Shown: positions 14,710 through 64,000 of the stretch, one piece after another | Layout of the letters: each line of letters begins with the position of its first letter | Numbering within the stretch: position 1 is the stretch's first letter | Assembly: GCA_020058085.1 (NCBI GenBank) | Contig: JAGVER010000010.1 | Location: 1,549-65,548 of the forward strand | Length of the DNA: 64,000 bases | From: Candidatus Omnitrophota bacterium | Lineage (GTDB): Bacteria > Omnitrophota > Gorgyraeia > Gygaellales > Profunditerraquicolaceae | Direction: 5' to 3' | Made by a program: the position numbers and the translations under genes | Notes under the pieces: model-generated | Seen by the model: only the letters and a program-made list of their open reading frames with translations | Told to the model about the DNA's origin: nothing | Databases searched by the model: none

Positions 14710-14804
14710 ACTTTCCTCCTTTTTGCTGTTTCAACACTAAAAAACTTGTAACGCTTCTATGCTTCTTCTAAAAACCCCAACTCGCCAATATCTGTTAGGG
14801 GGCG

Positions 14805-14863
14805 GTTCTAACAAAACTTATTACACATCAATAACTTATCTAGAAACGGCCTGATGCTTTACA
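14805..14863. repeat. Direct repeat copy 2 (~59 bp) with a remnant of a gene 3' end
   Basis: GTTCTAACAAAACTTATTACACATCAATAACTTATCTAGAAACGGCCTGATGCTTTA. The minus strand reads ...VKHQAVSR-stop, versus ...LKPQTVSR-stop in copy 1, but there is no ORF upstream. It is preceded by GGGGGCG, which resembles the GGGGACG arm of the 17242 and 63431 palindromes. Confidence 0.75.
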
Positions 14864-14938
14864 ATATAAGAGATTACAAAAACCACATTCTAATATGTGC
14901 CCAAAAGTGCCTATCCTACAAGAATAATCGAACGTGTT

Positions 14939-15916
14939 TCAAAAATCCGAAGAGAATGGTATTTTTACTTTCTTAAAAAGTTCTCTAAAATCTTGATGGT
15001 CTTTTATTAATTTTACTCTGCTCAATAAATCTTCATCTTGAGCTAATGTGTACAGATTGAAAATCCGAGCAAATATAATAAAAAACGCAACTATATACTG
15101 CGTTCCACACATTATCTCTGGTTTAAAAGAATTTTCTTTGTCAGGAAAAATCGGAAAAGTAATTTTATTCAAAAAGCTGTCACTGATATTTGCCTTACAG
15201 CCTATATACCACGCATCCGGATGAGACTTAGATGAAAATATACCGTAATTCAGTTTGTAATGAAGATTGCCTAATCCAACAGTATTCGCTTTTTGTTTTA
15301 TACTTGTATATTTGTTTTTATTAATCAACCCAAACGACCAATCTCCGGTATAGACATATTGAATCTTCCCGCTTTGCTTATCTTTTTTCCTAAGTTCGAA
15401 TTTCCTCCTATATTTGAGGTAGTTTTTATATAAACTATCATAGTCTTTCCCAAGCCTATTTTTGAGGTCTTTAATAGTATCTTTTGGTTTTGAATCCGGA
15501 TATAGATAAATTAAGCGCATATATCGCGATACGTCAGCCATCGCTACAAATTGATTTAAGCGACGTTTAGTATATTTGTGGAGCATAAAAGAGAGATTAA
15601 CTAACAACTCGTAAATACGTCTTATCAACATAGTTGCCGCAGTCGTTTGACCATTCCAAGCAATGTGTATAGAGGAAACATAACAAGAAAACGCTTCACA
15701 AAATAAGGTAAAGACAACTGCTTCTTTTAATTCTCCAGCTGCGCCTGTTTTATAAGTAAAGTTGTTACCTGCTATAAGTTTTTTATTTTCTAAATAATTA
15801 GAAAGCAACAATAATCCTTCCTTGGCTCCTTCAAAAGCTTCACTTTCTTCTTTTGGCCATTTAACAGAAGTATCTGAATTTAAAAGCTTACCCTCGAGAT
15901 AGCTCTTTATGGACAT
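14939..15916 (-). CDS. Hypothetical cytoplasmic protein (orphan)
   Basis: 325 aa, very AT-rich. No signal peptide and no motif I can assign. Confidence 0.55.
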   Translation of the reverse strand: MSIKSYLEGKLLNSDTSVKWPKEESEAFEGAKEGLLLLSNYLENKKLIAGNNFTYKTGAAGELKEAVVFTLFCEAFSCYVSSIHIAWNGQTTAATMLIRRIYELLVNLSFMLHKYTKRRLNQFVAMADVSRYMRLIYLYPDSKPKDTIKDLKNRLGKDYDSLYKNYLKYRRKFELRKKDKQSGKIQYVYTGDWSFGLINKNKYTSIKQKANTVGLGNLHYKLNYGIFSSKSHPDAWYIGCKANISDSFLNKITFPIFPDKENSFKPEIMCGTQYIVAFFIIFARIFNLYTLAQDEDLLSRVKLIKDHQDFRELFKKVKIPFSSDF

Positions 15917-15994
15917 ATTTTCATGCTTTCATGTATTATCAATAAATACGAACACCTCATTCTTCAGTAAATTTTATTACTGTAATGCTAACCA

Positions 15995-16206
15995 AAACTT
16001 CAAGATGTCTCTGGCAAGGTTCGAGCGAGTGTCGATTTTAGCCAATGGAGCTTGAGTATTGAGGGAATCCGCCACAATCATTGGCGGACGGCAAAACTGT
16101 TTGAGCGCCGAGGTAGAGACTGAGGCGCGAGTTGTTTTGCCGCCGAAATGCGAAAGATCATTGGCGTTAAAAAATCGACCTTGAGCGAGAAGTTTGACAG
16201 AGACAT
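15995..16206. repeat. ~200-nt nested perfect-palindrome element (candidate structured ncRNA or MITE-like element)
   Basis: Starts right after the TAA at 16207-16209. On the minus strand the stacked closing helices are ATGTCTCTG/CAGAGACAT, CAAGG/CCTTG, GTCGATTTT/AAAATCGAC and GCCAATG/CATTGGC. They enclose GCAAAAC..GCGCC..GGCGC..GTTTTGC and CCGCCA..TGGCGG. All pairs are Watson-Crick. Confidence 0.55.
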
Positions 16207-18252
16207 TTAATCTTTTAAGACCGAGTCGGCGCAAGAGACTACGTCTTCAACGCTAATCGCCTTTAAGCAGGCGAATTGTTTTTTACAATTATGTGCCAAG
16301 CATTCGATGCATTCGATGCATCCGACGTCTTTGTGCAAGACTTTATCTCTTAGGCCTACCGGCCCCCAACGCTTCGGGCTTAAACCTCTCTGTTTCCTGC
16401 CAAATATAGAGATTACAGGCGTACCTACTCCTGAAGCAATATGCACCGGACCAGAATCATTAGAAATAAACAAACTACATCTTTTTAGTAAACTGGCTAA
16501 CTGGGATACGGAAGTTTTTCCTGCTAGAGAGACTACAGAACTGCGCATATTTTTAATTACGTTTTGAGCAATTAATAAGTCTTTTGACCCAGAGACGACT
16601 AAAATTTTAAAGCCGTATTTTTGTGCTAACTCATCCGCCACTTCGGCAAAGCGTTCATGATGCCAAACCTTGGAAGGACAACTTGCTGCGGGATTTATGG
16701 CGAGTAATTTATCCTGCGCCTTTATACCTTCTTGTTTAAATAAATCATCAACCCATTCTTCGGATTCTTTCTTTATGGGCATAAAAAGATTTTTATCTTT
16801 AACATCGATTTTTAAATATCTTAATAAATCCAGATTATATTCCAGCTCATGCTTCTCCCCACGCTCTTTAGTATGGGGAATTCTGTCAGTAAGCAAAAAA
16901 CCTAATTTTCTATCGTAACCAACCCTTTTAGGTATGCCAGCGAGAAAACTTAATAAATGCGCGCGGTTTGTCGGATGTAAAACTATCGCCAGATCAAATC
17001 TTTTTTTCTCTAAATTACGGGCGAACTTTATCGACCGCGGCCAACTCTTATGTTTTCCTTCTTTATCATAAATAATAACTTCATCCAGATAAGGATTCCC
17101 TTCAACTATATCCTTAGCATAAGGAGAGACCACCATAGCAATAAAAGCATGAGGATATTTCTCGCGCACTGCTTTTATCACCGGCGTAGATAGAAGTACA
17201 TCTCCGATCCGATCGGTACGCACGATAAGAATACGTTTAAAAATAATGGGGACGGTTCTATTTTTCTTAAAAATAGAACCGTCCCCATTATTCCCATTAT
17301 TCAGCATCTCTCTTGATTGCCTTAGCACATCCTCTACCTTTATCAATCGCAGACAATCCAGAGTTCCCAGTTTACACTGCGCCTTTTTACATGGCCGACA
17401 ATGAATCTCTTTTTTTACTATGCTACTTTTTTTTGACCAGGGGCCATACTTACTATCATCAGTTATGCCAAATATAGCTACTACCGGTATATCCAGATAA
17501 CTTGCTATATGCATCGTGGCACTGTCATTACTAATTACTAAGGATGCCTTACTTAATAAGCTAGCCAACTCCCTTAGGTTAGTCTTGGCGCCTAGGTCTA
17601 AACAAGAGCCCTTTAAACTTTCATTAATATATTTATTTATCGGCGCATCTTCCTTATCTCCTACTAATACAACCTTAACTCCAAACTCTTCTTGCAATTT
17701 AAAAATCAGCTCGGCAAACTTCTCTTTAGGCCATCTTTTAGTATGACTGCGCGCTCCGGCAGATATGACAATAAAATTATCCTTATTACTGATCCCACCG
17801 TCTTTTAATAAACGCGTTATATACTCTGCGTCATTAGCACCTATATAAAAACTGCTCTTGGGCAAAGGATTATCACTCTTATATCCTGCGAGATAAAGAT
17901 GCCTCGCCTTCATATGTCTTATCTCTTTGGGTATTTTTGTAAGGCAAGGATGTTTGCTGTAGGCCTTAAGGATAAATCCTAAGAATGAATCCTTTAAATC
18001 TACAACCAGATCGAAATTATTCTTTATTAAATCCCTGAACAATTTAAGTTTTTCTTTAAATCCTGTGCGTTTATTATAAATAATAAATTTATCTACAGAA
18101 GGATTATCCGCGAATATATCTTTGGCTCTTTCGCTGGCTAAAACCGTAATATGGCTCTGGGGAAAGTCGGCCTTGAGAGAATCTAGGGCCGGAAGCGTAA
18201 GAATCACATCCCCAATATTGCTTAAAGTAATTAATAAAATCTTTTTTTTCAT
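16207..18252 (-). CDS. Tandem GT9 (heptosyltransferase-like) fusion protein; the two modules are joined by a palindrome-encoded linker
   Basis: 681 aa. The N module starts MKKKILLITLSNIGDVILTLPAL and has SNDSATMHIA. The C module starts KRILIVRTDRIGDVLLSTP and has SNDSGPVHIA. The linker NNGNNGDGSIFKKNRTVPIIF is encoded by 17242-17301. Confidence 0.8.
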   Translation of the reverse strand: MKKKILLITLSNIGDVILTLPALDSLKADFPQSHITVLASERAKDIFADNPSVDKFIIYNKRTGFKEKLKLFRDLIKNNFDLVVDLKDSFLGFILKAYSKHPCLTKIPKEIRHMKARHLYLAGYKSDNPLPKSSFYIGANDAEYITRLLKDGGISNKDNFIVISAGARSHTKRWPKEKFAELIFKLQEEFGVKVVLVGDKEDAPINKYINESLKGSCLDLGAKTNLRELASLLSKASLVISNDSATMHIASYLDIPVVAIFGITDDSKYGPWSKKSSIVKKEIHCRPCKKAQCKLGTLDCLRLIKVEDVLRQSREMLNNGNNGDGSIFKKNRTVPIIFKRILIVRTDRIGDVLLSTPVIKAVREKYPHAFIAMVVSPYAKDIVEGNPYLDEVIIYDKEGKHKSWPRSIKFARNLEKKRFDLAIVLHPTNRAHLLSFLAGIPKRVGYDRKLGFLLTDRIPHTKERGEKHELEYNLDLLRYLKIDVKDKNLFMPIKKESEEWVDDLFKQEGIKAQDKLLAINPAASCPSKVWHHERFAEVADELAQKYGFKILVVSGSKDLLIAQNVIKNMRSSVVSLAGKTSVSQLASLLKRCSLFISNDSGPVHIASGVGTPVISIFGRKQRGLSPKRWGPVGLRDKVLHKDVGCIECIECLAHNCKKQFACLKAISVEDVVSCADSVLKD
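17242..17292. repeat. 51-bp perfect palindrome (GGTTCTA-type element) lying in frame inside the GT9-GT9 gene
   Basis: AATAATGGGGACGGTTCTATTTTT-CTT-AAAAATAGAACCGTCCCCATTATT. The same 18-19 nt arms occur at 63431-63488. The adjacent 9-nt duplication CCCATTATT lies at 17293-17301. Confidence 0.9.
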
Positions 18253-20075: not shown

Positions 20076-21157
20076 TCTTGATATAATTCTTCCGTTTTTA
20101 AAACTATCTTTTCCTCTGAAAATTCTGCCGCAATATACTTGCGGGCATTTGCTCCTAAACTTGAGGCTTTGTTGGAATCGAATAATAAATCGATTATTGC
20201 CTTGGCAATACCGGGAGAATCTTCGGGATTAACCAATAAGCCATTTTCTCCATCTTTAATCAAGGTCTTAATCCCGCCTACAGCTGAACCAATAACCGCA
20301 AGCCCGGAGGACATTGCTTCCATAAGCGCAAGGCCTAAACCTTCTTTTAGTGAAGGCATCACAAATATATCTATCGCCGATAAGATATCTCTTGTATCTA
20401 ATCTTTCGGTTACAAAAAAAACACTCTTGCCAATACTTAGGCTCTCGCTTAATCTTTTTAGCTCTTTTTCCATCTTGCCTTCTCCGGCAATAAGCAACTG
20501 CGCATCCGGAAAATCCACTAAGACTATCTTCATTGCCTCAATCAGATACTTATGCCCTTTAACATCGGAGAGTCGGGCCAAAATACCAATCACCGGGCTG
20601 GATCTTAAACCCAGCCGAGACTTTGCTTCCTGCTTCTGAGATAAAGAAACTGGCTTAAATTTGTCTACTGCGATACCATTATTTATCAAACTTATCCTCT
20701 CTAAGCCTACCTTAAAATCATCCCTGAGATGCTCTTTAACCTGCTCGCTTATGGCAATTATCCTCTCACCCCAACACGGGAAAATCTTACGCGAGAAACG
20801 CCTTTTAAAGAAACCATGGCAAGTAGAGATATGCTTTGCACTGGTAAGCTTATGCAACAAAGACCCTAAGACCTGCGTAGTCCGGCTATGTGAATGCAAT
20901 ATATCAATTTTATTATCTTTAATTACTTTACTTAATTTAAACGCGCTTAATAGTATTTTAAGGCTTAACTCATTTTTAGTCTTGATCGGTATGGAAATAT
21001 AAATTATCCCTAAATCATTAAATTTAGGCAACAATTCTCCGCCGCTGGACGCGATAAAGACGCTATGCCCTTCTTTCTTAAGCCCGGATGCCAGGGTAAA
21101 AATATAGCTAGTTATACCCCCAACGTTAAGATGATTAACCAGAAAAAGTATTTTCAT
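20054..21157 (-). CDS. GT4 family glycosyltransferase
   Basis: 367 aa. NVGGITSY N-terminus; EGLGLALMEAMSSGLAVIGSAVGGIKTLIKDGENGLLV (E-x7-E). Confidence 0.88.
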   Translation of the reverse strand: MKILFLVNHLNVGGITSYIFTLASGLKKEGHSVFIASSGGELLPKFNDLGIIYISIPIKTKNELSLKILLSAFKLSKVIKDNKIDILHSHSRTTQVLGSLLHKLTSAKHISTCHGFFKRRFSRKIFPCWGERIIAISEQVKEHLRDDFKVGLERISLINNGIAVDKFKPVSLSQKQEAKSRLGLRSSPVIGILARLSDVKGHKYLIEAMKIVLVDFPDAQLLIAGEGKMEKELKRLSESLSIGKSVFFVTERLDTRDILSAIDIFVMPSLKEGLGLALMEAMSSGLAVIGSAVGGIKTLIKDGENGLLVNPEDSPGIAKAIIDLLFDSNKASSLGANARKYIAAEFSEEKIVLKTEELYQECLRKKE

Positions 21158-23241
21158 TTTAAAAACTTATCTACCCCTTCAAGCACTTCTTCCGCGGTTA
21201 TCATATTCATACACTTCTTATCTTTACATCTTGCTTTATAGCATGGGCTGCAAGGCAGCTCTTTACGGATGATCAAATAATCTTTTGCCGGAGGCATATG
21301 CCTTAACGGATCAGTCGGCCCGAAAAAAGCAACGATCGGAATCCTCATCGCTACGGCAATATGCAAAGGAGATGAATCAGCGGAAACATAAACAGCGCAA
21401 CGCTTAATCAAACAGGCTAACTGATTAACCGTTGTTTTACCGCAAGCGTTAATTACCTTGACGTTCTTTACCGCATTAACCAGCATATTCGCTTCTGGAA
21501 GATCATCTTCAATGCCTGTGACGACTACACGGATATTCCTTAAACCAAGTTCATCGCAAAACCTGACCATATGCTGCCTGGGCCAACATTTAGTAGCCCA
21601 TCTTTTGCTTGCGCCCATATTTATCCCGACAATCTTTTGGTCATCACTCAACCACTGCGTATTCAATAAATTCTCTATATACTCTTGATCATCTTCAGTA
21701 GGCCATAATTCTAAATGGCTATCTCTTAAATCTATGCCCAGTAACTTTAACATCCTGAATTGATGCTCTACTGGCCCTATCCGAGGCTTATCATCTTTAA
21801 TCCGATAATTAAGTAAAAAACTTAATTTTCTATTATCATACCCATAGCGGTTAAGGCTCAAAGACAAGAATGAAAGCAAGTGGCTTAGGCGATTGTTCTG
21901 AAGATCAATCACTAAATCAAAGTTTTTCTTTCTTAAGATTCGCGCAATGCTTAATAATCCCGCAATACCCTTATCTTTACCTTTAAGGTCAACTACTAAA
22001 AGTTCGTCTATATAGGGGCTCTTAAGCAAGAGATCTTTAGATTCCTCTCCAACCAAGAAACTTATCTTATGATGCACAAACTTTTCTCTTATTGCCCTGA
22101 TCCCGGGTATAGATAAAATAACATCTCCTAAAGAGCTTAACTTAATAATTAATAATCTGGGATTCTCAATAGCATCTAGATAAACCTTAAGTGTATTCTC
22201 TACCATAAGCCCGACATTATACTTCTCTCTCACCTTTAAAATAGCTGCCTCGGCAAGATTAAAAGCTAACTGCGGATCTTTAAATATCTTTATTATTGCC
22301 TCGGCCATACTCGCAGGATCACCGGGAGGGACTAAAAGGCCGTTCTTGTTATTCTCAATAATATCAACAACACCGCCAACTTCTGTGGCCACTACCGGTA
22401 CCCCTGATGCCTGCGCCTCGATAACAACCCTGCCAAAAGCTTCATGAGTAGTAGTTGCAAGCACCAAAAGATCCAAATGCGATAAGATCTCCGGAATATT
22501 CTTTTGTGTTCCTAAGAATTCGGTACAATGGCCAAGCCCCAGTCTTCTGGTTAAAACTTGCACTTGCTCCTTATAGGCCTGATGGGTAGGAGAAGCGTCT
22601 CCGACTACCCAGATTTTTAAAGATGGGACCACCCTGGCAACCTTAGCCATAGCCTTAATAAAATATAAGTGCCCCTTAATAGGCGTAATCCTGCCGATAA
22701 TTGCGATATTAAATTCCTTGCCTCTTTTTTTATTCGGGCTTAAATATTTAAATTTCTCTAAGTCTACGCTCCGAGGTATCAAAGATATTCTGTCATGCGG
22801 CACGGCAAAATCTTCAATCATATGCCGTGCGATAATATTACTTAAAACAATTACCTTCTTTCCCCAGCCCATTACATAACTAAAAGGATGTTTTTTATAA
22901 TAACCGTGACAAGTCGTAATAAAGACGGTTTTAGTCCTACGGCAGGCAAAATAAGCGATCCAAGCTGGCACGCGCGAACGCGCATGTACAATATCTATCT
23001 CCTCTTTTTTTATAATCTCAACTAAAAGAGAAACCATCTTAATCATCGTAAAGAGTGATTTTTTATGAACGGCGAGCTGGTAATGTTTGGCCCCAACCTC
23101 CTCTAAATCTTTAACTAATTTGCCACCGGCAGAGACAACAACTGCCTTATGATTCAAACGCACCAGATACTTGGCTAAATCCAAGGTCCCGGTCTCTACC
23201 CCTCCGACATTTAACTCCGGTAAAATCTGCAGTATGTTCAA
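21154..23241 (-). CDS. GT4 - GT9 two-domain glycosyltransferase fusion
   Basis: The N half has EAFGRVVIEAQASGVPVVATEVGGVVDIIENNKNGLLV. The C half has LLIIKLSSLGDVILSIPGIRAI and SADSSPLHIAVAM. TTG at 23241 with an AAGGAG SD 8 nt upstream is preferred over the ORF-track ATG at 23280, which lies inside a repeat hairpin. Confidence 0.8.
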   Translation of the reverse strand: MNILQILPELNVGGVETGTLDLAKYLVRLNHKAVVVSAGGKLVKDLEEVGAKHYQLAVHKKSLFTMIKMVSLLVEIIKKEEIDIVHARSRVPAWIAYFACRRTKTVFITTCHGYYKKHPFSYVMGWGKKVIVLSNIIARHMIEDFAVPHDRISLIPRSVDLEKFKYLSPNKKRGKEFNIAIIGRITPIKGHLYFIKAMAKVARVVPSLKIWVVGDASPTHQAYKEQVQVLTRRLGLGHCTEFLGTQKNIPEILSHLDLLVLATTTHEAFGRVVIEAQASGVPVVATEVGGVVDIIENNKNGLLVPPGDPASMAEAIIKIFKDPQLAFNLAEAAILKVREKYNVGLMVENTLKVYLDAIENPRLLIIKLSSLGDVILSIPGIRAIREKFVHHKISFLVGEESKDLLLKSPYIDELLVVDLKGKDKGIAGLLSIARILRKKNFDLVIDLQNNRLSHLLSFLSLSLNRYGYDNRKLSFLLNYRIKDDKPRIGPVEHQFRMLKLLGIDLRDSHLELWPTEDDQEYIENLLNTQWLSDDQKIVGINMGASKRWATKCWPRQHMVRFCDELGLRNIRVVVTGIEDDLPEANMLVNAVKNVKVINACGKTTVNQLACLIKRCAVYVSADSSPLHIAVAMRIPIVAFFGPTDPLRHMPPAKDYLIIRKELPCSPCYKARCKDKKCMNMITAEEVLEGVDKFLK

Positions 23242-23315
23242 CTTTATTTCTCCTTGCACAGTAAGTGCATACTGGCCCATCCTTTAAGGCCAGGTATTGC
23301 CCAGTAAGCGCACTT
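23242..23315. repeat. Structured intergenic repeat, copy C (short form)
   Basis: TGCAC-AGTAA-GTGCA 23256-23270 abuts the SD complement. TACTGGCCC...GGCCAGGTA 23271-23298, with the same bulged G as copies A and B. Runs to the stop at 23316-23318. Confidence 0.7.
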
Positions 23316-63419: not shown

Positions 63420-63430
63420 TCGAAAATAAT

Positions 63431-63488
63431 GGGGACGGTTCTATTTTTCCGCCTTTTTAGGCTTCTATAGAAAAATAGAACCGTCCCC
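63431..63488 (-). terminator. 19-bp-stem hairpin (GGTTCTA-type palindromic element) acting as an intrinsic terminator
   Basis: GGGGACGGTTCTATTTTTC (63431-63449) / GAAAAATAGAACCGTCCCC (63470-63488) with a 20-nt loop. It begins 7 nt after the stop of 63495..64000. AUUAUUUU follows on the minus strand and UUGUUUUU on the plus strand. Confidence 0.65.
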
Positions 63489-63494
63489 TTGTTT

Positions 63495-64000
63495 TTAACG
63501 CACGTCAATAAGGTCGAAGGTGTAATCTGTGATGCCAGAGGGTGAAACTAAAACTAGGCCGATCATCTTAGTCCCTTGATTCTTATAGAGAGCCTTAAAT
63601 TCAGATTGCTTTGTGTTCGGTTTAAAATCCCCGAGGCTTCCTGACCAGAGATATTGCAGCTCGACATTAAAACATCCACTTGAGGCGAGATAAACGGAAG
63701 ATTTTATCTCCGCTTCTTCACCTGATTTAGGATAGTAGATATTTGATCTTAAGTCAATCTTACTCATATCAAAGTTGGCGGATGATTCTTTTAAAGAAAC
63801 ATCCATAAAAGTCTTCAAATTGTGCTCCATGGCTGCGCCTTCTTCTGATTCCTTTAGCCTCTCCTGGGCCATCTGAAGGGTATCCGTAGGATACCCTTCA
63901 GATTTTTCAATTAATTTCTTATAGTATCCTTTAGCAGGCGCCAGATCTCCCTCCCATTGCTTAAGCAGGCCCAATTGGTATAAACTTGCTAAAGAATGCG
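63495..64000 (-). CDS. C-terminal part of a larger (TPR-like N-terminal) protein; 5' end outside the window
   Basis: The ORF-track start at 63974 is TTG, and the frame stays open upstream to base 64000 (..HSLASLYQLGLLKQWEGDLAPAKGYYKKLIE). The C-terminal 110 aa are beta-rich and of unknown family. Confidence 0.6.
   Translation of the reverse strand, partial: HSLASLYQLGLLKQWEGDLAPAKGYYKKLIEKSEGYPTDTLQMAQERLKESEEGAAMEHNLKTFMDVSLKESSANFDMSKIDLRSNIYYPKSGEEAEIKSSVYLASSGCFNVELQYLWSGSLGDFKPNTKQSEFKALYKNQGTKMIGLVLVSPSGITDYTFDLIDVR

What the first reader, a model, noticed from the sequence alone, without database searches (positions are those of the whole stretch)
17242..17292. Perfect 51-bp palindrome lies in frame as the linker of a GT9-GT9 fusion gene
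AATAATGGGGACGGTTCTATTTTT-CTT-AAAAATAGAACCGTCCCCATTATT is translated as ..NNGDGSIFKKNRTVPII.. between two complete heptosyltransferase-like modules in ORF 16207..18252. The same arms form an intergenic terminator hairpin at 63431-63488. The second module begins KRILIV, where such enzymes normally begin MKRILI, and it has no start codon of its own. The element is 17 codons long, and 9 nt at its edge are directly duplicated (17284-17292 and 17293-17301). One explanation is that a palindromic intergenic element or terminator was captured, replacing a stop/start junction and fusing two genes. The alternative is a small mobile palindrome that inserted without breaking the frame.
Basis: seen in the sequence. 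Interest (0 to 1): 0.65.

Follow-up and report, generated by a model that had tools for sequence, protein, structure and literature searches.

The report
Mobile hairpin repeat inside enzyme linker
The perfect 51-bp palindrome is real, but it did not fuse two genes: it is a miniature copy of a transposase-associated hairpin repeat that replaced the floppy, unconstrained tether of an anciently fused double glycosyltransferase, a known kind of event.

Summary
Observation confirmed. Window 17242-17292 is a perfect 24+3+24 palindrome read in frame as codons 321-337 of a 681-aa GT9-GT9 protein. A 9-nt duplication lies beside it, and a second copy lies at 63423-63496.

The GT9-GT9 fusion is ancient: the 120 best-scoring Omnitrophota homologues listed are all full-length fusions (59-89% identity), each with a variable linker of about 15-20 aa and no palindrome. 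The closest relatives share a different, homologous linker. The window lineage replaced all 16 of those codons.

The arm GGGGACGGTTCTATTTTT is the terminal inverted repeat of a RAYT-like HUH/Y1 transposase element. Eight distinct transposase genes (three found through the arm, five chosen by protein homology alone) are all flanked by it. Arms-only hairpins with variable loops (3-84 nt) are scattered, mostly between genes, through Omnitrophota, Aminicenantes, Clostridia and other groups. A few sit in frame inside giant genes.

The copy is tolerated because the tether is unstructured (pLDDT below 50), the change in length is a multiple of three, and two of the three frames have no stop codon.

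This is a new member of a known kind (REPIN/TIR repeats, intragenic REPs, Rickettsia RPEs). Interest is modest.

The parts
17242..17292 (.). Perfect 51-bp palindrome (24-nt arms, 3-nt loop). It is a minimal, arms-only copy of the Y1-transposase-associated hairpin repeat, translated as codons 321-337 (NNGDGSIFKKNRTVPII).
17248..17265 (+). Family-wide constant 18-mer GGGGACGGTTCTATTTTT (left arm core). 17242-17247 (AATAAT) is the variable A-rich outer stem.
17269..17286 (-). Inverted copy of the constant 18-mer (right arm core). 17287-17292 (ATTATT) is the outer stem.
17293..17301 (.). 9-nt tandem duplicate of the arm's outer end (CCCATTATT; AATAATGGG on the coding strand), codons 318-320. Similar partial tandem duplications of the outer end of the left arm occur next to Y1 genes in relatives.
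16207..18252 (-). Anciently fused GT9-GT9 (double heptosyltransferase-like) gene, 681 aa. Module 1 is about aa 1-317 and module 2 about aa 338-681.
63423..63496 (.). Second, typical copy of the same repeat (20-nt loop), intergenic, directly after the stop codon of the 159-aa ORF and upstream of the purB-like gene. It shares the rare outer flank CCCCATTATTTT with the linker copy.
14798..14809 (+). Possible degenerate arm fragment (GGGGGCGGTTCT, 1 mismatch) in the intergenic flank of a DUF5677 gene that is absent from the orthologous loci. Weak evidence.

Best explanation
The palindrome is a minimal, arms-only derivative of a mobile element. The full-length element is a RAYT-like (IS200-superfamily, HUH/Y1) transposase gene bracketed by inverted arms of about 24-26 bp, with core GGGGACGGTTCTATTTTT. 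Non-autonomous hairpins of this family (two arms plus a variable loop of 3-84 nt, usually about 20 nt) are scattered through Omnitrophota and several other phyla whose MAGs here come largely from groundwater, lake and sediment samples. They lie mostly just downstream of genes, where they look like bidirectional intrinsic terminators.

After the window lineage split from its closest sampled relative (P0002), a copy of the same subfamily as the intergenic copy at 63.4 kb replaced the 16-codon tether that joins the two GT9 modules of an anciently fused enzyme. The copy survives for three reasons. The tether is hypervariable and unstructured. The net change in length is a multiple of three. Two of the three reading frames of the palindrome have no stop codon.

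What is shown: the ancient fusion; the family and its transposase link; the replacement of the linker; the disordered context; the terminator-like shape.

What is inferred: (1) arrival was by Y1-mediated single-strand transposition or by recombination with another genomic copy; (2) the perfect symmetry, the minimal loop and the adjacent 9-nt duplication reflect hairpin-templated repair or slippage afterwards; (3) on the mRNA the -39 kcal/mol hairpin with its U-rich tail is largely melted by translating ribosomes and causes at most some pausing or polarity.
For: Ancient fusion.

Ancestral linker: TGxQxEDSG..LGNDN is shared by P0002, P0005 and P0006 and is absent in the window. The window and P0002 genes are 86.6% identical at the nucleotide level.

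The family: the exact 18-mer occurs in at least 119 genome stretches (scan truncated). These hold 52 perfect inverted pairs, 30 imperfect pairs and 52 single arms. The stem extends 6-8 bp beyond the 18-mer, and loops are 3-84 nt with a mode of 17-22.

Transposase link: in L033, L080 and L122 a Y1_Tnp gene sits between the arms. The proteins have HUH and YIxxNPVR motifs, and their best NCBIfam match is REP-associated tyrosine transposase (62-68 bits, against about 19 bits for IS200).

Unbiased test: 5 of 5 homologues chosen only by protein similarity (83-49% identity) carry the left arm 35-175 nt upstream of the start codon and the right arm over the stop codon. L180 has a matching change in both arms.

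Other in-frame copies: L042 and L050, inside giant ORFs.

Context and shape: AF2 gives pLDDT below 50 for residues 320-335, a coil between helix 306-318 and strand 340-344. Frames 0 and 1 are open and frame 2 is closed. The palindrome matches the terminator pattern on the coding strand. Both window copies share the outer flank ATTATTTT, which is rare elsewhere.
Against: No Y1 gene lies in the 64-kb window, and the rest of the source genome could not be examined. The window holds only two copies.

No target-site duplication or empty-site/filled-site pair was found. The ancestral linker was replaced, not simply interrupted.

P0004 (83% identity) carries the arm core at exactly the same codon offset but has no second arm. 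A single recent insertion does not explain this.

Each arm is not itself a small palindrome and lacks a terminal GTAG, so how a Y1 enzyme would recognise it is unknown.

The junction rests on one assembly. The exact protein was not found on any other contig.
Confidence: 0.8

Rival explanations
1. Same family-derived sequence, but not a fresh whole-element insertion. A half element (one arm) was already in the linker, or entered by short-patch recombination. The second arm was then written in situ by intramolecular template switching (quasi-palindrome correction). This would give a perfect palindrome with the smallest possible loop and overwrite the rest of the linker.
For: P0004 has AAACAA-GGGGACGGTTCTAT at the same codon offset and in the same frame, with no right arm. 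Symmetry is perfect even in the outer 6 nt, which vary between family members and are imperfect in copy 2. A 3-nt loop is seen in only 2 of 54 perfect pairs. The whole linker was replaced. The adjacent 9-nt partial arm duplication and similar tandem partial arms in relatives point to slippage or template switching at these hairpins. Single arms are common: 52 of 134.
Against: The sister P0002, and also P0005 and P0006, have an unrelated-looking linker. The arm is therefore not ancestral on the window's branch and still had to arrive from elsewhere. No intermediate was sampled. The right arm plus flank is identical to copy 2 over 26 nt, which is equally well explained by copying from such an element.
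Confidence: 0.25
2. One reading: an intergenic terminator or palindrome between two separate GT9 genes lost its stop/start context and fused them.
For: The hairpin has the shape of an intrinsic terminator, and the same element is intergenic at 63.4 kb. Module 2 lacks its own start codon.
Against: All 120 best-scoring homologues listed are already fused (665-716 aa, 97-100% coverage). All 22 aligned proteins have a linker of similar length with the invariant FKRILIVRTDRIGD directly after it, and none of the others has the palindrome. A GT4-GT9 fusion lies in the same cluster, so fusions are normal here.
Confidence: 0.02
3. Assembly or sequencing artefact. The true locus carries an ordinary linker or a normal-loop element, and the perfect short-loop palindrome arose from assembly collapse or a chimeric read at a repeated hairpin.
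For: The junction is known from a single assembly. Repeated hairpins are hard to assemble and sequence. A perfect palindrome with a 3-nt loop is unusual.
Against: The k-mers spanning TTTTT-CTT-AAAAA cannot come from copy 2, whose loop differs. The frame stays open and the net length change is a multiple of 3. An artefact would achieve this in only about 2 of 9 cases. Short-loop members exist in independent assemblies: L028 has 3 nt, L078 has 4 and 5 nt, and L039, L047 and L118 have 6 nt. The flanks are collinear with the orthologues.
Confidence: 0.05
4. The hairpin is kept by selection as an intragenic regulator: an attenuator or pause site that sets the ratio of module-1-only product to full-length product, or that coordinates folding of the two modules.
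For: Strong hairpin followed by AUUAUUUUU on the coding strand, which matches the terminator pattern. It sits exactly at the domain boundary.
Against: It is absent from every sampled orthologue, so it is not needed for the enzyme. Termination inside an ORF would give non-stop mRNAs. Its occurrence is adequately explained by neutral tolerance of a selfish repeat.
Confidence: 0.05

Closest known systems
TIR-flanked RAYT-like transposase genes with dispersed TIR repeat families (Di Nocera et al. 2013, PMC3733652)
   Same: A Y1 (IS200-superfamily) transposase gene bracketed by inverted repeats that are not GTAG REPs. The same inverted repeats occur as a moderately abundant family of short hairpins elsewhere in the genome, mostly downstream of genes and sometimes inside genes.
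   Different: Different sequence and hosts (Omnitrophota, Aminicenantes, Clostridia and others). The same 18-mer is kept across phyla while the transposases are only 28-47% identical among the three arm-found proteins (the protein-picked homologues are 49-83% identical to the L033 protein). The element carries its own TTGACA-17-TAnAAT promoter, and the arm's TAG serves as the transposase stop codon.
REPINs / REP sequences and RAYTs (Bertels & Rainey 2011, PMC3116915; Bertels et al. 2017, PMC5581495)
   Same: Non-autonomous hairpins made of two inverted units separated by a spacer. They are linked to a flanking HUH/Y1 transposase, are mostly extragenic, and are frequent as singletons that are remnants of doublets.
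   Different: Each unit here is not itself a small palindrome and has no terminal GTAG. The transposase scores below the NCBIfam RAYT cut-off. One identical protein is found in several genomic contexts, and the family crosses phyla, which resembles an IS rather than a domesticated, single-copy, vertically inherited gene.
Rickettsia palindromic elements (RPEs) inserted in frame in protein-coding genes (Ogata et al. 2000, from my own knowledge; RPEs are also discussed in PMC3733652)
   Same: A selfish palindromic repeat that is translated as part of a functional protein and is tolerated at surface or linker positions. This is the closest analogue for what the finding works like.
   Different: RPEs are about 100-150 bp, restricted to Rickettsia, and have no known transposase. 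The element here is 51 bp, has a candidate transposase, and replaced a linker rather than adding a new segment.
Intragenic REPs at the same site in recB of two Xanthomonas species (PMC3733652)
   Same: Different repeat copies occupy about the same position of orthologous genes. This parallels the window and P0004 both carrying the arm at one codon offset of the linker.
   Different: Different gene, repeat family and phylum. In P0004 only a half element remains.
IS200/IS605 insertion sequences
   Same: The same transposase superfamily (Pfam PF01797, HUH plus catalytic Tyr), and presumably single-strand DNA chemistry without target duplication.
   Different: IS200/IS605 elements lack terminal inverted repeats and use separate subterminal hairpins. 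The IS200 model scores only about 19 bits against a cut-off of 55. The proteins here are 220-290 aa rather than about 130-150 aa.

Membership tests
RAYT/REPIN system | Y1 (HUH + Tyr) transposase gene flanked by the repeat in inverted orientation | tested here: met
   Eight distinct genes (L033, L080, L122, L165/166, L169, L170/171, L172-179, L180) have an arm on each side. HUH and YIxxNPVR motifs are present. This holds in relatives only; no such gene lies in the window.
RAYT/REPIN system | Protein reaches the curated RAYT model threshold | tested here: not met
   NF047646 is the best hit, but at 62-68 bits against a cut-off of 80. The proteins are RAYT-like, not certified equivalogs.
RAYT/REPIN system | Repeat unit is itself a short imperfect palindrome tagged by a terminal GTAG (or CGTC) | tested here: not met
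   The 18-24-nt arm has no internal self-complementarity and no terminal GTAG. CGTC occurs internally (AACCGTCCCC), not at the end.
RAYT/REPIN system | Flanking repeat is abundant and mostly extragenic in the same genome | tested here: met
   Examples from a truncated scan: 25 exact arms in 9 loci of one Omnitrophota MAG and 11 in 7 loci of a complete Aminicenantes chromosome. Only 3 of 82 paired copies lie inside ORFs of at least 150 aa.
RAYT/REPIN system | Transposase is single-copy and vertically inherited (domesticated) | tested here: inconclusive
   The identical protein P0217 occurs in three different flank combinations and in 102 index blocks. The family spans several phyla. Both point to IS-like mobility, but copy number per genome was not measured.
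TIR-flanked RAYT-like elements with TIR repeat families (PMC3733652) | Y1 gene bracketed by terminal inverted repeats unrelated to GTAG REPs, with the same TIRs dispersed as short hairpins | tested here: met
.
IS200/IS605 | Match to the IS200 transposase model; no TIRs; separate subterminal hairpins | tested here: not met
   NF033573 scores about 19 bits against a cut-off of 55. Inverted arms are present.
MITE (classical) | Terminal inverted repeats plus a direct target-site duplication | tested here: not met
   TIRs are present, but the flanks are inverted-complementary A-rich/T-rich stems, not direct repeats. The 9-nt duplicate lies on one side only.
Rickettsia palindromic elements | Member of the RPE sequence families of Rickettsia | not tested
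   No RPE sequences were compared. Host and size differ. RPEs are used only as a functional analogue.
Intrinsic terminator | G+C-containing stem-loop followed by a U-tract that stops RNA polymerase | tested here: inconclusive
   The pattern is met on the coding strand (20-bp stem, tail TTTTTAAACG), with dG = -38.9 kcal/mol. Function cannot be tested with these tools.
Fused GT9-GT9 heptosyltransferase-like proteins of Omnitrophota | Two GT9 modules in one polypeptide, joined by a short variable linker before FKRILIVRTDRIGD | tested here: met

The most novel reading that the evidence does not exclude
The arm-flanked Y1 element is an undescribed, horizontally spreading RAYT-like family whose recognition sequence has stayed almost invariant across several phyla while the transposase diverged to 28-47% identity. 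Because its arms are stop-free in two frames, it repeatedly contributes peptide segments to proteins: this linker, the linker of P0004, giant Omnitrophota genes, and the C-terminus of an Aminicenantes protein. In this gene the terminator-shaped hairpin at the exact domain boundary might additionally act as an attenuator or pause that uncouples production or folding of the two GT9 modules.
Probability: 0.1. Interest if true: 0.6.

Novelty: new member of a known kind. Interest (0 to 1): 0.35.

Why it matters
For annotation: the fused GT9-GT9 gene is genuine and ancient and should not be split. The palindrome should be annotated as a repeat, not as a terminator between genes.

For biology: it adds a clear case from an uncultivated phylum of a transposase-associated hairpin repeat being translated inside a functional protein. 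It shows that inter-domain tethers, and giant genes, are where such elements survive.

The associated Y1 element has a nearly invariant 18-mer arm across several phyla, its own promoter, and a stop codon supplied by the arm. This makes it a convenient candidate for biochemical work on how RAYT-like enzymes recognise non-REP inverted repeats.

Tried and rejected
- **Rfam** on the region: only generic hairpin hits, far below gathering scores.
- **Full-text literature search** for the arm sequence: only unrelated primer or eukaryotic hits.
- **Exact-protein look-up** of the window's fusion protein and of P0001: not on record, so there is no independent assembly of the junction.
- **Source contig:** not found in the metagenome scan. 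L145, the only other relative above 85% identity, covers only residues 394-680 and so lacks the linker.
- **ORF clustering across the 119 arm loci:** the largest clusters were generic families (response regulators, SDRs, ABC ATPases, radical SAM) and were dismissed. Only the Y1_Tnp cluster was specific.
- **Not every Y1 gene carries these arms:** L018 and the first Y1 gene of L169 are flanked by different hairpins, and L008 shows no flanking pair.
- **PDB sequence search** with the Y1 protein: no hit.
- **Viral contigs:** one single-arm hit, so the family is not typically phage-borne.
- **Residual homology** between the palindrome and the ancestral linker (GEDSGIY against GDGSIF; my hand comparison of the linker codons gave about 45% nt identity): too weak to claim.
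- **DNA check of the direct peptide repeats** in distant orthologue linkers: only weak 21-nt periodicity in the few loci available.
- **Integron attC, CRISPR repeat, tRNA/tmRNA-derived sequence, library-adapter hairpin:** considered by inspection only and rejected, because the motifs do not fit.
Full report
**1. The observation**

The sequence is as described. Window 17242-17292 is a perfect palindrome: 24-nt arms, 100% complementary, with a 3-nt loop. The arm, allowing 3 mismatches, occurs four times in the window (two arms at each of two sites). It occurs in none of 100 dinucleotide-preserving shuffles. As RNA on the coding (minus) strand it folds at -38.9 kcal/mol, z = -9.4.

The palindrome lies in ORF 16207-18252 (minus strand, 681 aa) at an offset that is a multiple of three. 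It is codons 321-337 and reads NNGDGSIFKKNRTVPII. The 9 nt next to it (17293-17301) duplicate the outer end of the arm and form codons 318-320. Pfam finds two GT9 stretches in the protein.

A second copy at 63423-63496 has a 20-nt loop and three mismatches in the outer stem. It starts right after the TAA stop of the upstream gene and lies about 100 nt upstream of the purB-like start codon.

**2. The palindrome did not create the fusion**

A search with the 681-aa protein returned 914 proteins at E <= 1e-10. The 120 best are all 665-716 aa and cover 97-100% of the query at 59-100% identity. Those that carry a name from a source are named as Omnitrophota proteins.

In an alignment of 22 of them, both modules are conserved. 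They are joined by a variable stretch of about 15-20 residues between ...VLRxxRxIL and the invariant FKRILIVRTDRIGD. None of the other linkers encodes the palindrome. The linker DNA I could fetch folds at only -6 to -24 kcal/mol.

The next gene upstream is a third GT9. Further upstream lies a GT4-GT9 fusion that is also present in relatives, so fused glycosyltransferases are normal in this cluster.

**3. What happened in the linker**

Among the closest relatives whose DNA I could fetch, P0002, P0005 and P0006 share a homologous linker: T-G-x-Q-x-E-D-S-G...L-G-N-D-N, ending GAT AAT TTT AAA CGT. P0002 is the window's sister, with 86.6% nucleotide identity across the gene. That linker is therefore the ancestral state for the clade that contains the window.

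In the window all 16 of those codons are gone. In their place are 20 codons: the 9-nt duplicate and the 51-nt palindrome. This is a replacement, not a simple insertion.

P0004 (83% identity) has an otherwise unrelated 29-residue linker. It begins AAACAA-GGGGACGGTTCTAT, which is the arm core at the same codon offset and in the same frame as in the window, once the window's 9-nt duplicate is discounted. P0004 has no recognisable second arm.

**4. What the arms are**

It is most frequent in Omnitrophota MAGs. It also occurs in:
- a complete Aminicenantes chromosome (7 loci, 11 exact arms);
- other Aminicenantes;
- Clostridia/Eubacteriales;
- Planctomycetia;
- Desulfobacterota-type and Nitrospirota MAGs.

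One hit, a 3.3-kb "Aenigmatarchaeota" contig of low coverage, is probably misbinned.

Of 134 arm occurrences, 52 are perfect inverted pairs, 30 have a partner with 1-5 mismatches, and 52 are single. Across 54 perfect pairs:
- the stem continues for 6-8 bp beyond the 18-mer, as an A-rich 5' stretch and a T-rich 3' stretch, variable but 70-89% complementary;
- complementarity falls to background by position 9;
- loops are unrelated in sequence and 3-84 nt long, mostly 17-22 nt.

The window's 24-nt arms therefore match the family's unit. Its 20-nt-loop copy is typical. Its 3-nt-loop copy is the rare minimum, seen in 2 of 54 pairs (the window and L028).

**5. The link to a transposase**

I clustered all ORFs of the 119 loci. 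The only specific recurrent family was Pfam Y1_Tnp. In L033 (Omnitrophota), L080 (Aminicenantes) and L122 (an unclassified bacterium) the gene lies exactly between a left arm and an inverted right arm.

The proteins are 224-293 aa. They carry HUH (HIH, HVH or HFH) and a YIxxNPVR tyrosine motif. They are 47% and 28% identical to the L033 protein. They match the NCBIfam model for REP-associated tyrosine transposase best: 62-68 bits against a cut-off of 80, compared with about 19 bits for the IS200 model.

As an unbiased test I searched with the L033 protein, which returned 542 homologues at E <= 1e-20. I then fetched the contigs of five homologues chosen only by identity: 83, 70, 63, 58 and 49%. 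All five have:
- the left arm 35-175 nt upstream of the start codon;
- a TTGACA-17-TAnAAT promoter-like sequence after it (read directly in three of the five: L165, L170, L172);
- the right arm over the stop codon, so the arm's own TAG is the stop.

L180 carries the same substitution in both arms (GGGGACGtTTCT / AGAAaCGTCCCC). One identical protein (P0217) sits in three different combinations of flanking genes, which indicates mobility or recombination at the element.

Several loci have tandem partial copies of the outer end of the left arm, for example GTAAAGGG|CGTAAAGGGGACGG in L175. This is the same kind of scar as the window's AATAATGGG|AATAATGGGGACGG.

**6. Why it is tolerated, and what it may do**

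AlphaFold2 was run on the 22-sequence alignment (mean pLDDT 81, pTM 0.76). It models two Rossmann-type modules. Residues 320-335 have pLDDT below 50, and the block 321-330 averages 33. They form a coil between the last helix of module 1 (306-318) and the first strand of module 2 (340-344).

The palindrome has no stop codon in two of its three frames. Because it is a palindrome, this holds in either orientation.

Other members are read through in the same way:
- L042: ...NGDGSIF-HPVVELP-KIEPSP..., inside a giant Omnitrophota ORF;
- L050: ...QGDGSVF-LTPNSG-KIEPSP..., inside a giant Omnitrophota ORF;
- half arms inside giant ORFs in L023, L035 and L088;
- L080: the arm supplies the last residues (GDGSI) and the stop codon of a 766-aa protein.

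On the coding strand the palindrome matches the simple intrinsic-terminator pattern, with a 20-bp stem followed by TTTTTAAACG. From general knowledge of transcription-translation coupling, I infer that a ribosome following the polymerase would largely suppress termination. Some pausing or polarity cannot be excluded. A perfect palindrome is also a likely hotspot for slippage or SbcCD-type processing.

**7. How it got there (inferred)**

Both window copies share the outer flank CCCCATTATTTT on the minus strand. The ATTATT outer stem is seen in only one other perfect pair. The linker copy therefore belongs to the same within-genome subfamily as the intergenic copy.

I favour arrival from such a copy, either by Y1-mediated single-strand transposition or by short-patch recombination. 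Hairpin-templated repair or deletion afterwards would have made the arms perfect, shrunk the loop to 3 nt and left the 9-nt duplicate.

The rival is that only one arm arrived, or was already present, and the second was written in situ by template switching. It explains the perfect outer stem, the minimal loop and the P0004 half element equally well. I give it about 0.25.

The shared codon offset in the window and P0004 may reflect target preference, survivorship (only the tether tolerates such inserts) or recombination between lineages. A parallel case is reported in the literature: different REPs at about the same site in recB of two Xanthomonas species.

An assembly artefact is unlikely but not excluded, because only one assembly holds the junction.

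**8. Comparison with what is known**

Di Nocera et al. 2013 describe RAYT genes flanked either by GTAG REPs or by long TIRs unrelated to them. They also describe moderately abundant TIR repeat families, and REPs inside genes. Bertels and Rainey describe REPINs as inverted REP doublets mobilised by RAYTs, and characterise RAYTs as usually single-copy and vertically inherited. Rickettsia palindromic elements are the classic in-frame selfish repeats (my own knowledge; they are mentioned).

The present element works like these and fits the TIR-flanked RAYT-like class. It does not meet the strict REP definition, because the units are not self-palindromic and carry no GTAG tag, and the protein scores below the RAYT cut-off. 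It is not IS200/IS605.

No Rfam family and no paper in the searchable library mentions the sequence.

**9. Verdict**

- The fusion-by-captured-terminator reading is refuted.
- The mobile-palindrome reading is supported and made specific.
- The finding is a new member of a known kind. Its interest is modest.
- The most notable by-product is the cross-phylum Y1 element with an almost invariant 18-mer arm.

Noticed in passing
window 16300-16320 (minus strand, aa 645-651): A second in-frame 9-nt tandem duplication in the same gene (TGCATCGAA x2, giving CIECIEC). It lies inside the conserved Cys-rich motif GCIECLAHNC and is absent from all 21 other aligned orthologues. AF2 gives low confidence for residues 644-656.
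   Followed up: partly
proteins P0019-P0116 (linker region); loci L128-L144: Many distant orthologues carry a lineage-specific direct peptide repeat of period about 7 aa in the linker, for example VTNYQLP-ITNYQ, NIDHRPS-TIDHRP, APSPKLR-APSP and VQSSKFK-VQSS. The repeated sequence differs between orthologues but the duplicated layout recurs, which suggests repeated slippage or concerted evolution. The DNA available showed only weak 21-nt periodicity.
   Followed up: partly
window 14710-16206: About 1.5 kb, holding a DUF5677 gene (14939-15916) and an 85-aa ORF, lies between the fusion gene and the DUF4410 gene. In L001 and L002 these two genes are adjacent (13-80 nt apart). A 1-mismatch arm fragment (14798-14809) lies in its flank.
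   Followed up: partly
L042 1-7998 (-), L050 669-8000 (+), L023, L088; L170 gene 1-409: Stop-free frames spanning whole 8-kb loci in Omnitrophota (giant genes; one neighbouring gene is called at 4297 aa). They have almost no Pfam domains and carry in-frame full or half copies of the hairpin repeat.
   Followed up: partly
L031 4489-4608: The 84-nt loop of one hairpin contains a second, unrelated nested palindrome with GTAG motifs (...GTAGACCGCGTAGGTCTAC...). It looks like a GTAG-type REP inserted into the loop.
   Followed up: no
L170 1390-1450; L173, L175, L177, L178 1370-1470: Two to four tandem full or partial copies of the left arm (period about 25 nt) lie directly upstream of Y1 transposase genes. 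They may be scars of repeated cleavage and rejoining, or of slippage, at the left end.
   Followed up: partly
L080 4358-6658: The arm provides the last five residues (GDGSI) and the stop codon of a 766-aa protein in a complete Aminicenantes chromosome.
   Followed up: no
L018 907-1389; L169 263-925: Other Y1_Tnp genes in the same MAGs are flanked by different hairpins, for example CTTCCATTTCGTAAATGGAAG. Several RAYT-like/repeat pairs therefore coexist in one genome.
   Followed up: no
L003 4982-5013: The linker of P0004 contains its own 10-bp perfect inverted repeat (ATACTTGATT...AATCAAGTAT) directly after the half arm.
   Followed up: no
window 21154-23280 (-): A 708-aa GT4-GT9 fusion protein lies in the same glycosyltransferase cluster and is conserved in relatives (695 aa in L002 and L003).
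   Followed up: yes
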